Source of the DNA: Escherichia coli 042 | GTDB taxonomy: Bacteria > Pseudomonadota > Gammaproteobacteria > Enterobacterales > Enterobacteriaceae | Strand: one strand, 5' to 3' | Assembly (NCBI RefSeq): GCF_000027125.1 | Contig: NC_017626.1 | Length of the DNA: 64,000 bases | Shown: one piece after another, positions 58,732-60,146 of the stretch | Layout of the letters: each line of letters starts with the position of its first letter | How positions within the stretch are numbered: position 1 is the stretch's first letter | Notes under the pieces: generated by a model | Databases searched by the model: none | Seen by the model: the letters and a program-made list of their open reading frames with translations, nothing else | Told to the model about the DNA's origin: nothing | Made by a program: the position numbers and the translations under genes

Positions 58732-59082
58732 TCAAATAACTGTCATTTTTAGCTTCCAGTAAATCGGATCTTCATTTTCATCCTGATTTATATTTTTTGA
58801 AACAAGTTCAATGATGTGTTCTTGATGCCAATACAAGATTGTGGCTTTTAAATCTCTTCTATTGATATCAGATACATCATTTTTGACAGAGTATTTCTTC
58901 ATCTCACGAGCAATCAAAACGTCATATGTGATGCCTGAAAGGAAACCATCATTCAAAATATCTATTGCTGTTTCAGGATGTTTTTCATAAATACCATATA
59001 TCTCATCACAGTATCCTTGTAAGATGTTAGCAACAAGTTCGTTTTTTGTTTCCTCATAACTATTCAATATAATCTCTTTCAT
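58732..59082 (-). CDS. Hypothetical protein (116 aa)
   Basis: ORF in a co-directional cluster of small genes downstream of the alpA-like gene. Confidence 0.5.
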   Translation of the reverse strand: MKEIILNSYEETKNELVANILQGYCDEIYGIYEKHPETAIDILNDGFLSGITYDVLIAREMKKYSVKNDVSDINRRDLKATILYWHQEHIIELVSKNINQDENEDPIYWKLKMTVI

Positions 59083-59121
59083 CTTTAATCCTTTTATTTT
59101 GTTAATGGTTAGTAAAAATAA

Positions 59122-59358
59122 TTAGTTGTTATAACCGATATTGATGATAACGGAGCCATATTCCAAATCTAACTCATCAACTAAATCGTTATTGACATGT
59201 CTATTTAAAGCATCAATCAAGTTCTTATCCCCTATCATTTCTTCTACTGAATACCCACTTAGAGCAACAAATACATCAAAGCTTTCTTGAATAGTATTCA
59301 TTACGTTAGGAGTTCCTTCGCACAGCATACTTACTACTACAGATATTTTATTTGTCAT
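59122..59358 (-). CDS. Hypothetical protein (78 aa)
   Basis: ORF in the small-gene cluster. Confidence 0.45.
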   Translation of the reverse strand: MTNKISVVVSMLCEGTPNVMNTIQESFDVFVALSGYSVEEMIGDKNLIDALNRHVNNDLVDELDLEYGSVIINIGYNN

Positions 59359-59410
59359 TTATATTTTCCTTTATTACTAATCTTAGCCCCTTGCGGGGCA
59401 AAATGGATTC

Positions 59411-59707
59411 TTATTTTCTGAAGCTGTCTGAATATCTAACCAACATAGCAGCAACCATTTCAAAGTTAACCTGATTAATATCACCGTTATTACCCTCTTG
59501 GGCAGTGAATATTTCAAAGTTGTTCTGAATGTGGTCAATCGCATGGATAATAAATGGACTCATAAAATCCGGGTCATCTAGATAATCATTAGCATCCCCA
59601 TCGCCATTAACTTCCATGAACATATTCCAGCTTGTGGCAAATGATCTACATGCAAGGTCATAGAACAGTTCAGTTGATTTATTAATACCTATCTTCTCTT
59701 TAAACAT
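59411..59707 (-). CDS. Hypothetical protein (98 aa)
   Basis: ORF in the small-gene cluster; followed by hairpin gccccttgcggggc. Confidence 0.5.
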   Translation of the reverse strand: MFKEKIGINKSTELFYDLACRSFATSWNMFMEVNGDGDANDYLDDPDFMSPFIIHAIDHIQNNFEIFTAQEGNNGDINQVNFEMVAAMLVRYSDSFRK

Positions 59708-59786
59708 ATTTATATCCTCATAGTTAAATGCTTATTTAATTCATTGTGTTTTTTATTAGCCCCTTCCGGGGCCGAATACGCGGTTA

Positions 59787-60146
59787 TTAGCTCATACTAA
59801 AAAGTAATGCTTGAGTATGTACATATCTCATTTCATGCATAACTTTATCCATATCAACATAAATCAGTCTTTCTCTTTTACCTGCCTCTTCCATATGTTT
59901 ATCAAAGCGCTTTTCCAGATATTCTTTAACATGCAAAAGATATGATTCAGTTCTATTACTATCTAACATTATGGCTTCCAATACCTCATACTCTTCCTGC
60001 TCTTTATATATACGTATTCCTGTGATATAAAGATTCTTCGCCATAGCAGTAAAAACTTTAGTTGATGAGTCCTTAATGTTATTTAGTTCTTCAGTATTCA
60101 TATAGTTACTCCATATTTTTTGATATATAGCCCCCTGCATTTTCAT
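59787..60146 (-). CDS. Hypothetical protein (119 aa)
   Basis: ORF in the small-gene cluster; followed by hairpin gccccttccggggc. Confidence 0.5.
   Translation of the reverse strand: MKMQGAIYQKIWSNYMNTEELNNIKDSSTKVFTAMAKNLYITGIRIYKEQEEYEVLEAIMLDSNRTESYLLHVKEYLEKRFDKHMEEAGKRERLIYVDMDKVMHEMRYVHTQALLFSMS

What the first reader, a model, noticed from the sequence alone, without database searches (positions are those of the whole stretch)
58732..60146. Small-gene cluster punctuated by near-identical GC hairpins
Hairpins gccccttgcggggc (59386-59399) and gccccttccggggc (59759-59772), each preceded by TTAGC, sit in the short spacers between co-directional minus-strand small ORFs. A repeated intra-operon hairpin may be an attenuator, an RNA processing site or a mRNA stabiliser. 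The small ORFs themselves are candidates for anti-defence or toxin-antitoxin functions typical of this island position.
Basis: seen in the sequence. Interest (0 to 1): 0.35.

Follow-up and report, generated by a model that had tools for sequence, protein, structure and literature searches.

The report
Conserved GNRA hairpins between island genes
The two GC hairpins are real, conserved RNA stem-loops (two of four) that punctuate a small-gene operon ending in the H-NS antagonist gene hnsT on an E. coli genomic island. They most likely shield pieces of the messenger RNA from degradation rather than stop transcription, which is a known kind of element.

Summary
GCCCCTTGCGGGGC (59386-59399) and GCCCCTTCCGGGGC (59759-59772) are the only two matches to that pattern in 64 kb, against 0.04 expected.

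On the minus (mRNA) strand they read GCCCC-GCAA-GGGGC and GCCCC-GGAA-GGGGC: 5-bp GC stems capped by GNRA tetraloops, about -10 kcal/mol each. Each lies 11-14 nt after a stop codon and is followed by UAA plus an A-rich stretch with no U tract, so they are not intrinsic terminators or attenuators.

- HP3 at 58695-58712, upstream of hnsT.
- HP0 at 60130-60162, in the orf104 leader.

The operon (AlpA > orf104 > orf98 > orf78 > orf116 > hnsT) is a module of serU/EARL-type (ROD21-like) genomic islands. It matches in 509 of 5426 complete E. coli genomes, 64 of them over at least 80% of the region, and occurs in many Enterobacterales.

Across 65 loci the hairpins persist. The loop is G-N-A-A with all four N. 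Stem changes are mostly C>U, which gives G.U only in the sense RNA, and there are two compensatory pairs. The hairpin travels with its upstream gene.

Best reading, not tested experimentally: protective intercistronic stem-loops that shape segmental mRNA stability. The four small acidic proteins have no recognisable toxin-antitoxin or defence-system signature; no anti-defence library was available.

The parts
60281..60514 (-). AlpA-family HTH gene (recombination directionality factor / regulator); first gene of the conserved module
   Evidence: Pfam PF05930 at E 9.5e-18. RefSeq annotates it as a helix-turn-helix / AlpA family regulator. The putative RDF of EARL islands is described in PMC6035254.
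60181..60208 (-). Weak sigma-70-like promoter candidate in the AlpA-orf104 spacer (TAAACA-16-CATAAT)
   Evidence: Consensus scan, 9 of 12 positions. This is inference only. The spacer is present only in the loci with the long (134-185 nt) spacer version.
60130..60162 (-). HP0: leader stem-loop of orf104. Lower stem GCUCUC/GGGGGC, 7-nt internal loop, upper stem UGCAU/AUGCA with a GAAA tetraloop.
   Evidence: MFE -13.9 kcal/mol, z -2.94. The consensus fold is kept in 5 loci, with one-sided changes to G.U.
59787..60101 (-). orf104, a small protein (pI 5.6); possible distant paralogue of orf98
   Evidence: RefSeq start. It hits phrog_19730 at E 0.006, as orf98 does at 2e-6. hhalign against orf98 gives E 1.4e-3 and probability 18% over 78 collinear columns. 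A c0b paralogue occupies the same slot in other loci.
59759..59772 (-). HP2: GCCCC-GGAA-GGGGC, 14 nt after the orf104 stop, followed by UAAUAAAAAAC
   Evidence: dG is -10.0 kcal/mol, or -12.4 with the flanking G.U pair. It is conserved in the loci examined.
59708..59758 (-). Highly conserved spacer between HP2 and the orf98 start, including the Shine-Dalgarno GAGGA
   Evidence: Mean pairwise identity is 0.92 across 14 loci, against 0.86-0.88 for the adjacent coding DNA. A 21-nt core retrieved 37 metagenome loci. The reason for this conservation is unexplained.
59411..59707 (-). orf98, an acidic (pI 4.3) four-helix protein of unknown function, restricted to Enterobacterales
59386..59399 (-). 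HP1: GCCCC-GCAA-GGGGC, 11 nt after the orf98 stop, followed by UAAGAUUAG
   Evidence: It follows most full-length orf98-family genes in the loci examined (46 of 54 instances form five standard pairs) and is degraded in a few lineages; it stays in place whichever gene comes next.
59122..59358 (-). orf78, a small acidic protein (pI 4.05) of unknown function; no hairpin follows it in this window
   Evidence: The 39-nt spacer after it is unstructured.
58732..59082 (-). orf116, a small acidic protein (pI 4.8) with a helical-bundle model
58695..58712 (-). HP3: UUCCCUC-GAAA-GAGGGAA, 19 nt after the orf116 stop and 32 nt before the hnsT start
   Evidence: dG is -10.7 kcal/mol. The stem is identical in 44 of 48 loci. 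The loop is GAAA or a GNRNA pentaloop (GUGCA, GUACA, GUGUA), and the flanks are only 59-71% conserved. Loop length varies between 4 and 5 nt, so the region is non-coding.
58423..58662 (-). hnsT, a truncated H-NS (N-terminal oligomerisation domain only) and known H-NS antagonist; last gene of the operon
   Evidence: Pfam PF22470 at E 2.9e-17. RefSeq calls it an 'H-NS family histone-like protein' of 79 aa. Function from PMC3897749 and PMC7074111.

Best explanation
The hairpins are cis-acting RNA stem-loops on a polycistronic minus-strand mRNA that runs from alpA, or from a promoter just downstream of it, through orf104, orf98, orf78 and orf116 to hnsT. Each is a short, very stable GC stem capped by a GNRA-fold loop, placed a fixed 11-20 nt after the stop codon of one cistron.

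Proposed mechanism (inferred, not shown): after endonucleolytic cleavage or Rho-dependent termination further downstream, 3'-to-5' exonucleases (PNPase, RNase II) trim back and stall at the stem-loop. The upstream cistron(s) then persist longer than the downstream ones. The same stem-loops could also cap the 5' end of the downstream fragment if RNase E cuts just upstream of them. The net effect would be set stoichiometry among the small proteins and H-NST.

The near-identity of HP1 and HP2 is most simply explained by descent. A gene-plus-3'-hairpin unit of the orf98 family was duplicated, and the hairpin has since been kept by selection.
For: Shown here:
- Both hairpins are exact and non-random.
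- In mRNA sense the loops are GNRA. Across 54 instances in 28 genome loci the loop is GCAA 26, GAAA 14, GUAA 5 and GGAA 4. Position 2 is free while G1 and A3-A4 are fixed. HP3 alternates between GAAA and GNRNA pentaloops.
- 62 distinct variants from 65 loci give 95.8% paired cells, 17 G.U cells and 2 compensatory pairs, namely C-G>U-A in L110 and C-G>A-U in L125.
- My own tally from the listed variants gives about 10 independent C>U changes, tolerated only in the sense RNA, against 1 unpaired G>A. The sense fold is more stable than the antisense fold in 57 of 62 variants.
- Conservation exceeds neutral expectation. HP2 is 0.91 and HP1 0.84, against immediate flanks of 0.67-0.78 and codon third positions of 0.71-0.78. 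The HP3 stem is invariant in 44 of 48 loci with flanks at 0.59-0.71.
- There is no U tract, and no terminator or promoter is predicted at any hairpin.
- The distance from stop codon to stem falls in a few fixed classes (11-12 nt after orf98, 13-14 after orf104, 20-21 after c0b), while the distance to the next start varies. The hairpin stays with its upstream gene whether the next gene is orf78, orf116 or hnsT.

From the literature:
- Such stem-loops also bound the differentially decaying segments of operons such as malEFG and menBCE. RNase E cleavage upstream of a hairpin stabilises papA (PMC5927463).
Against: - No transcript data were available. Co-transcription, 3' ends and half-lives are all inferred.
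- The stems are almost invariant, so covariation support is thin: 2 compensatory cells out of 310.
- The C>U excess could partly reflect coding-strand mutation bias. With a 2:1 bias, 10 of 11 is only marginal.
- One lineage (L013, L014, L122: Yersinia rohdei, Brenneria izbisi and a metagenome contig) has both HP1 and HP2 degraded while the genes are intact, so the hairpins are dispensable there.
- At about -10 kcal/mol the hairpins are weaker than classic REP barriers.
- The very high conservation of the spacer after HP2 (0.92) shows that other, unidentified constraints act in these intergenic regions.
Confidence: 0.5

Rival explanations
1. The hairpins act mainly as 5' caps, as in papBA. RNase E cleaves in the AU-rich sequence just upstream, and the stem-loop then sits at the 5' end of the downstream fragment (orf98, orf78, hnsT) and protects it from further 5'-end-dependent RNase E attack.
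For: An RN|WUU-like motif (R-U-A-U-U) lies directly 5' of HP2 (GUAUUCG) and HP3 (GUAUU/AUAUU) in most loci (alignments). HP0 sits in the orf104 leader, where only a 5' role is possible. The papBA precedent and 7 of 10 similar operons are described in PMC5927463.
Against: The RNase E motif carries little information in 33% GC sequence and is not kept upstream of HP1 (AAUCUU). The hairpin type is determined by the upstream gene, not the downstream one: hnsT is preceded by HP3 or by HP1 depending on its neighbour. The distance to the downstream start is variable.
Confidence: 0.15
2. They are weak transcription terminators or attenuators that lower read-through step by step along the operon, possibly overridden by the AlpA-family protein. 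Pseudomonas AlpA is a processive antiterminator.
For: GC-rich stem-loops lie directly after stop codons. An AlpA-family gene heads the module. P. aeruginosa AlpA lets RNA polymerase bypass intrinsic terminators (PMC7969949 and PMC9371919, listed).
Against: No U tract follows any of the hairpins in any of 62 variants; the 3' flank is UAAU or UAAC followed by A-rich sequence. The terminator scan found none. In contrast, a true terminator elsewhere on the island (40599-40612) does carry UUUCGUUUU. No alternative leader structures were seen.
Confidence: 0.1
3. They have no current function. They are relics carried along when a gene-plus-terminator cassette of the orf98 family was duplicated and rearranged, and they look conserved only because the whole module is young and spreads horizontally.
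For: The hairpin follows most members of the orf98 family (c0a, c0b) and the probable paralogue orf104. The module is only 10-20% diverged at the DNA level across genera. One lineage shows decay of both HP1 and HP2.
Against: The hairpins are better conserved than synonymous sites and than their immediate flanks. Loop position 2 has turned over to all four bases while G1/A3/A4 and the stem stayed fixed. Two compensatory changes occurred. The unrelated-sequence HP3 and HP0 share the same GNRA-capped design.
Confidence: 0.12
4. They are protein-recognition hairpins resembling lambda boxB (GCCCU-GAAAA-AGGGC), bound by an island or host factor, for example to load an antitermination complex that lets RNA polymerase escape Rho in H-NS-silenced AT-rich DNA.
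For: A 5-bp GC stem with a GNRA-fold loop is the boxB design. Variants GCCCU-GAAA-AGGGC (L110) and GCCCC-GAAAA-GGGGC (L009) come very close to nutR boxB. The invariance of the stem sequence, not just of pairing, hints at sequence-specific recognition.
Against: No boxA lies next to any hairpin. The only boxA-like string, UGCUCUCAAAA near HP0, has 4 mismatches and is explained as the 5' arm of the HP0 lower stem, while the true rrn boxA sites in the same window score 0-1 mismatches. The operon proteins other than H-NST are acidic, pI 4.0-5.6, with no arginine-rich motif. No N-like protein was found.
Confidence: 0.06
5. They act at the DNA level, as a single-stranded DNA hairpin or recombination junction. 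Examples would be a cassette boundary that promotes gene shuffling, or a signal on the transferred strand of this mobilisable island.
For: Gene content changes immediately downstream of the hairpins in different islands, with orf78, orf116 or hnsT following HP1. The island family is mobilisable (PMC6035254).
Against: Sequence similarity between arrangements does not resume at a defined point next to the hairpin (inspection). No promoter is paired with the stem-loop as in T4 PeSL cassettes. The motif is not dispersed elsewhere in the window. The GNRA loop pattern is an RNA signature.
Confidence: 0.05

Closest known systems
[quoted passage not shown]
   Same: Both are stable stem-loops at the 3' boundary of a cistron inside a polycistronic unit. 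Both lack a following U tract, are conserved between enterobacterial genera, and can occur several times in one operon.
   Different: These are very short (14-18 nt), lie in intergenic spacers rather than inside the next ORF, and are all capped by GNRA-fold loops. They sit on a horizontally acquired island module. Their effect on decay is untested.
papBA-type 5' protective hairpin after RNase E cleavage
   Same: A hairpin in an intercistronic spacer with an AU-rich RNase E-like motif just upstream (HP2, HP3).
   Different: No cleavage data exist. The hairpin identity follows the upstream gene.
Lambda boxB (nut site) GNRA-fold hairpin
   Same: A 5-bp GC-rich stem closed by a GNRA-fold loop. Some natural variants differ from nutR boxB by one loop nucleotide.
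   Different: There is no boxA and no N-like arginine-rich protein. The loop is mostly a tetraloop rather than a pentaloop, and the position is after stop codons inside an operon rather than promoter-proximal.
T4-type PeSL (promoter-early stem-loop) cassettes flanking small ORFs in hyperplastic regions. The attribution to Arbiol et al. 2010 is from my own recollection and was not checked here.
   Same: A repeated stem-loop motif between small, fast-shuffling genes of unknown function. An unrelated phage contig (L085) shows the very same hairpin twice in that layout.
   Different: No promoter accompanies the stem-loops here.
Intrinsic terminators
   Same: A GC-rich stem with a stable tetraloop directly after a stop codon.
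   Different: The U tract is missing on both strands.

Membership tests
Intrinsic (Rho-independent) terminator / attenuator | GC-rich stem-loop | tested here: met
   5 G-C pairs, dG -10 kcal/mol.
Intrinsic (Rho-independent) terminator / attenuator | U-rich tract (at least about 5 U in 8 nt) immediately 3' of the stem | tested here: not met
   The 3' flank is UAAUAAAA or UAACCAAA in 62 variants. The terminator scan finds no site at the hairpins. On the + strand the T run precedes the stem.
Intrinsic (Rho-independent) terminator / attenuator | Mutually exclusive antiterminator/leader structure (for attenuators) | tested here: inconclusive
   Local folds show only the simple hairpin. No systematic search for alternative pairings was done.
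Protective intercistronic stem-loop (differential operon decay) | Stable stem-loop at the boundary of a cistron within a co-directional gene cluster, without a U tract | tested here: met
Protective intercistronic stem-loop (differential operon decay) | Evolutionary conservation of the structure above background | tested here: met
   Hairpins score 0.84-0.91 against flanks of 0.67-0.78 and third codon positions of 0.71-0.78. 95.8% of cells are paired, with 2 compensatory pairs.
Protective intercistronic stem-loop (differential operon decay) | RNA 3' ends mapping just downstream of the stem, and a longer half-life for the protected segment | not testable with these tools
   No RNA-seq, Term-seq or decay data are accessible.
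GNRA tetraloop hairpin | Four-nucleotide loop G-N-R-A on a C-G closing pair, N free | tested here: met
   Loops GCAA, GAAA, GUAA and GGAA account for 49 of 54 instances. HP3 has GAAA or GNRNA, and HP0 has GAAA.
Lambda-type nut site | boxA (CGCUCUUA / UGCUCUUUAACAA) a few nt upstream of the hairpin | tested here: not met
   No match with 3 or fewer mismatches lies adjacent to any hairpin, whereas the rrn boxA sites in the same window score 0-1 mismatches.
Lambda-type nut site | Cognate N-like arginine-rich RNA-binding protein | tested here: not met
   The operon proteins have pI 4.0-5.6, apart from H-NST. No N-family hit in Pfam or PHROGs.
REP / BIME elements | An imperfect palindrome of about 35 nt present in many copies across the chromosome. 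This definition is from my own knowledge. | tested here: not met
   The hairpins are 14 nt, with only 2 copies in 64 kb that include 35 kb of core chromosome. The exact-motif scan of IMG/VR gave 63 hits, by my rough estimate near the chance level.
T4-type PeSL cassette | Stem-loop coupled to a promoter driving the next small ORF | tested here: not met
   No sigma-70-like site lies between any hairpin and the next start.
Toxin-antitoxin or known defence system (for the small ORFs) | Profile match to a known toxin, antitoxin or defence family | tested here: not met
   [not shown]
serU / EARL (ROD21-like) genomic-island module | AlpA-type RDF near one island end, short H-NS homologue (H-NST), low GC, P4-like integrase at the other end | tested here: met
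   AlpA and the H-NS N-terminal domain. GC is 33%. A 423-aa ORF next to ssrA (35871-37142) is taken as the integrase; it was not run through any profile search. SEN1982-family, TraW and DotA genes and a full-length H-NS lie on the same island. Family description from PMC6035254 and PMC7074111. The integration site here (ssrA) differs from the Asn-tRNA sites of typical EARL islands.

The most novel reading that the evidence does not exclude
The four GNRA-fold stem-loops are not passive barriers. They are a set of boxB-like recognition hairpins read by an island-encoded or host protein. That protein couples expression of the H-NS antagonist operon to escape from Rho/H-NS silencing, which would be a nut-like system without boxA on a genomic island. 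The near-invariant stem sequences would reflect specific recognition.
Probability: 0.06. Interest if true: 0.6.

Novelty: new member of a known kind. Interest (0 to 1): 0.28.

Why it matters
hnsT encodes a dominant-negative antagonist of H-NS that can de-repress virulence loci such as LEE. How much H-NST and its four uncharacterised acidic companions are made is therefore relevant to how serU/EARL islands establish themselves and affect host regulation.

If the stem-loops set segmental mRNA stability, they are the cis elements fixing the stoichiometry of this module. They also give precise, testable 3'-end predictions.

Beyond that, the result is a clean but ordinary example of a widespread design, stop codon then GNRA-capped GC hairpin then Shine-Dalgarno, which also appears in unrelated phage small-gene clusters.

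Tried and rejected
- Rfam found nothing at the hairpins at gathering threshold or at E up to 10; there were only chance snoRNA and CRISPR-DR hits.
- The terminator and promoter scan found no site at the hairpins.
- The boxA/nut idea was rejected. UGCUCUCAAAA near HP0 has 4 mismatches to boxA, and about 26 chance matches are expected even at 3 or fewer. It pairs with GGGGGC as the lower stem of HP0.
- BLASTP of orf98 against orf104 gave no alignment. Profile comparison is only weakly positive, at E 1.4e-3 and probability 18%, so paralogy of orf104 is a lead, not a result. Orf98 against the c0b paralogue is better, at E 8e-5 and probability 61%.
- The exact-motif scan of IMG/VR (GCCCCGNAAGGGGCTAA) gave 63 hits, by my rough estimate about twice chance and so uninformative. 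Only L073 carries the module.
- Searches of the phage and plasmid collections did not find the module; only hnsT or alpA fragments matched.
- The search for an ssrA-derived direct repeat marking the island end found none of 12 nt or longer.
- Cassette-junction idea: similarity between alternative gene orders does not resume at a fixed point beside the hairpin (inspection).
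Full report
**Observation**

The sequence shows GCCCCTTGCGGGGC at 59386-59399 and GCCCCTTCCGGGGC at 59759-59772. The pattern GCCCCNNNNGGGGC has exactly these two matches in the 64-kb window, against 0.04 expected from shuffles. Both lie in spacers between co-directional minus-strand ORFs.

The genes are on the minus strand, so the relevant reading is the reverse complement: GCCCC-GCAA-GGGGC and GCCCC-GGAA-GGGGC. These are five G-C pairs closed by GNRA tetraloops, at -10.0 kcal/mol each.

**Context**

The window is E. coli chromosome. It carries an rrn operon, the pheST leader and ssrA at 35384-35746. A genomic island starts next to ssrA, with a 423-aa ORF there that I take to be the integrase (not profile-checked).

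The 2.1-kb region is 100% identical to E. coli isolate AHB1. Some part of it matches 509 of 5426 complete E. coli genomes, always on the chromosome, and 64 genomes match over at least 80% of it. Four ORFs are annotated as hypothetical, flanked by an AlpA-type regulator and an 'H-NS family histone-like protein'.

Pfam confirms AlpA (PF05930), the H-NS N-terminal domain only, and DUF6387 upstream. Elsewhere the island carries a SEN1982-family lipoprotein gene, TraW and DotA/TraY genes and a full-length H-NS.

This is the make-up of the serU/EARL (ROD21-like) island family, whose short H-NS homologue H-NST is a documented H-NS antagonist (PMC6035254, PMC3897749, PMC7074111). The module was not found in the phage or plasmid collections.

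**Gene order**

On the minus strand the order is:
- DUF6387 (60655-61521)
- AlpA (60281-60514)
- orf104 (59787-60101)
- HP2
- orf98 (59411-59707)
- HP1
- orf78 (59122-59358)
- orf116 (58732-59082)
- hnsT (58423-58662)

**More hairpins than reported**

Using the RefSeq starts rather than the longest ORFs exposes two further stem-loops.

HP3 (58695-58712, UUCCCUC-GAAA-GAGGGAA, -10.7 kcal/mol) lies between orf116 and hnsT.

HP0 (60130-60162) lies in the orf104 leader. It has a lower stem GCUCUC/GGGGGC and an upper stem UGCAU/AUGCA capped by GAAA (z -2.9).

Of only seven perfect GC-rich 5-bp stems with GNRA or GNRNA loops in the whole window, three lie in this 1.1-kb stretch on the sense strand.

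**Comparative evidence**

I assembled loci from three sources: four divergent E. coli islands, 23 loci from species-representative genomes of Kluyvera, Cedecea, Pectobacterium, Brenneria, Yersinia, Serratia, Mangrovibacter, Xenorhabdus, Erwinia and others, and 37 metagenome loci. The metagenome loci were retrieved with a conserved 21-mer that does not overlap the stems.

Findings from these loci:
- A GCCCC-GNAA-GGGGC hairpin follows most full-length genes of the orf98 family, including a 105-aa paralogue (c0b) that replaces orf104 in some islands, and it follows orf104 as well. Of 54 instances, 46 form five standard pairs; the rest are weakened.
- The loop is GCAA 26, GAAA 14, GUAA 5 and GGAA 4 of 54. 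The second position has turned over to all four bases, while G1 and A3-A4 are fixed.
- HP3 has an identical stem in 44 of 48 loci. Its loop is either GAAA or a GNRNA pentaloop (GUGCA, GUACA, GUGUA), the two loop types that I recall as adopting the GNRA fold (my own knowledge, not checked here).
- On 62 distinct 30-mers, 95.8% of cells are paired, with 17 G.U cells and two compensatory double changes.
- Stem substitutions are mostly C>U, which keeps pairing only in the sense RNA. My own tally from the listed variants is about ten independent events against one unpaired G>A. The sense strand folds better than the antisense in 57 of 62 variants.
- In a 14-locus alignment the hairpins (0.84-0.91 identity) are better conserved than their immediate flanks (0.67-0.78) and than third codon positions (0.71-0.78).

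I treat the C>U asymmetry as suggestive only, because coding-strand mutation bias works in the same direction. The GNRA loop pattern is the stronger strand-specific signal.

**What they are not**

No U tract follows any variant; the 3' flank is UAAU or UAAC and then A-rich sequence. On the + strand the T run precedes the stem. The terminator scan reports nothing there. A genuine terminator on the same island (40599-40612) does carry UUUCGUUUU.

The other candidates also fail:
- No promoter is predicted between a hairpin and the next start, so they are not PeSL-like promoter cassettes.
- Rfam has no match.
- A boxA-like string near HP0 fails the comparison with the true rrn boxA sites in the same window, and it is explained as one arm of HP0.
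- The operon proteins other than H-NST are acidic, so a lambda-nut-type system is not supported.
- The exact motif is not dispersed. It occurs twice in the window, and at what I estimate to be near chance frequency in IMG/VR.

**Anatomy that bears on mechanism**

The distance from stop codon to stem falls in a few fixed classes: 11-12 nt after orf98, 13-14 nt after orf104 and 20-21 nt after c0b. The distance to the next start varies from 27 to about 60 nt.

The hairpin type follows the upstream gene. HP1 follows orf98 whether the next gene is orf78, orf116 (L027) or hnsT (L021-L028). The hairpin is therefore physically a 3' appendage of a cistron.

Orf98 and c0b are related at profile level (E 8e-5). 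Orf104 aligns collinearly but weakly (E 1.4e-3), and both orf98 and orf104 hit phrog_19730. Duplication of a gene-plus-hairpin unit therefore explains why HP1 and HP2 are near-identical.

**Most likely mechanism**

E. coli uses stable, U-tract-less stem-loops to protect 3' ends created by Rho termination or endonucleolytic cleavage from PNPase and RNase II. It also uses them to give operon segments different half-lives, sometimes with several consecutive hairpins (PMC6061677, PMC5927463).

The elements here match that description in every sequence-level respect. I therefore propose that they are protective intercistronic stem-loops that set the relative amounts of the small proteins and H-NST (confidence 0.5).

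A papBA-like 5'-capping role is a close variant: RUAUU motifs sit just 5' of HP2 and HP3, and HP0 is in a leader. The remaining rivals are weak attenuation, relics without function, boxB-like protein recognition and DNA-level roles.

None of this could be tested without transcript data. One lineage (L013, L014, L122) has let HP1 and HP2 decay, which shows they are not indispensable.

**The small proteins**

Orf98, orf78 and orf116 are acidic, with pI 4.0-4.8. They are restricted to Enterobacterales; orf98 has 224 clusters, all unnamed. None has a significant hit in Pfam, NCBIfam, PADLOC or PDB sequences.

Toxin-antitoxin or anti-defence roles are therefore unsupported, though anti-defence is not excluded, since no anti-defence library was available. 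Co-expression with an H-NS antagonist suggests an establishment or anti-silencing role, but that is speculation.

**Verdict**

They are conserved sense-strand RNA elements of a known kind, not terminators. The interest is modest.

Noticed in passing
window 59708-59758 (-): The spacer between HP2 and the orf98 start codon is 92% identical across 14 loci from different genera, more than the flanking coding DNA. Its 21-nt core AATAAGCATTTAAYTATGAGG retrieved 37 metagenome loci. No promoter or structure explains this.
   Followed up: partly
window 60130-60162 (-): HP0 is a two-tier stem-loop with a GAAA cap in the orf104 leader. It is present only in islands with the long AlpA-orf104 spacer and lies downstream of a weak promoter-like site (60208-60181). 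Its 5' arm superficially resembles boxA but fails the test.
   Followed up: yes
window 40599-40655 (+): GGGCC-UUAC-GGCCC followed by UUUCGUUUU is an ordinary intrinsic terminator after ORF 39831-40559. Two further small palindromes follow it (UUCCCUUAAAGGGAA and CUCUCCCUUGGAGAG), which recall the HP3 stem.
   Followed up: no
L085 6892-6908 and 7465-7481 (+): An unrelated IMG/VR phage contig carries GCCCCGCAAGGGGCUAAUUUAAGGAG twice, 573 nt apart. The layout is the same: stop codon, hairpin, CUAA, Shine-Dalgarno, start. A U-tract version (GCCCCGAAAGGGGUUUUUU) lies between them. This suggests a generic design for phage small-gene clusters.
   Followed up: partly
L013, L014, L122 (orf98 at 3501-3794 in L013): In the Yersinia rohdei / Brenneria izbisi lineage both HP1 (UCACC-GAAA-GGGGC) and HP2 (GCCCC-GAAA-GAGGC) are degraded, while HP3 and all genes are intact.
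   Followed up: partly
[not shown]
   Followed up: partly
window 62281-63873 (-): A 530-aa ORF with a Pro/Asp/Lys-rich linker and a C-terminal part that looks like an autotransporter beta-domain (Ag43/YpjA-like). It lies just beyond the island end. The otherwise identical isolate AHB1 has glaH there instead.
   Followed up: no
window 35384-37142 (+): The island sits next to ssrA (tmRNA) with a 423-aa ORF, taken as its integrase, at 35871-37142. Typical EARL islands instead use Asn-tRNA genes. No ssrA-derived direct repeat of 12 nt or more was found at the far end.
   Followed up: partly
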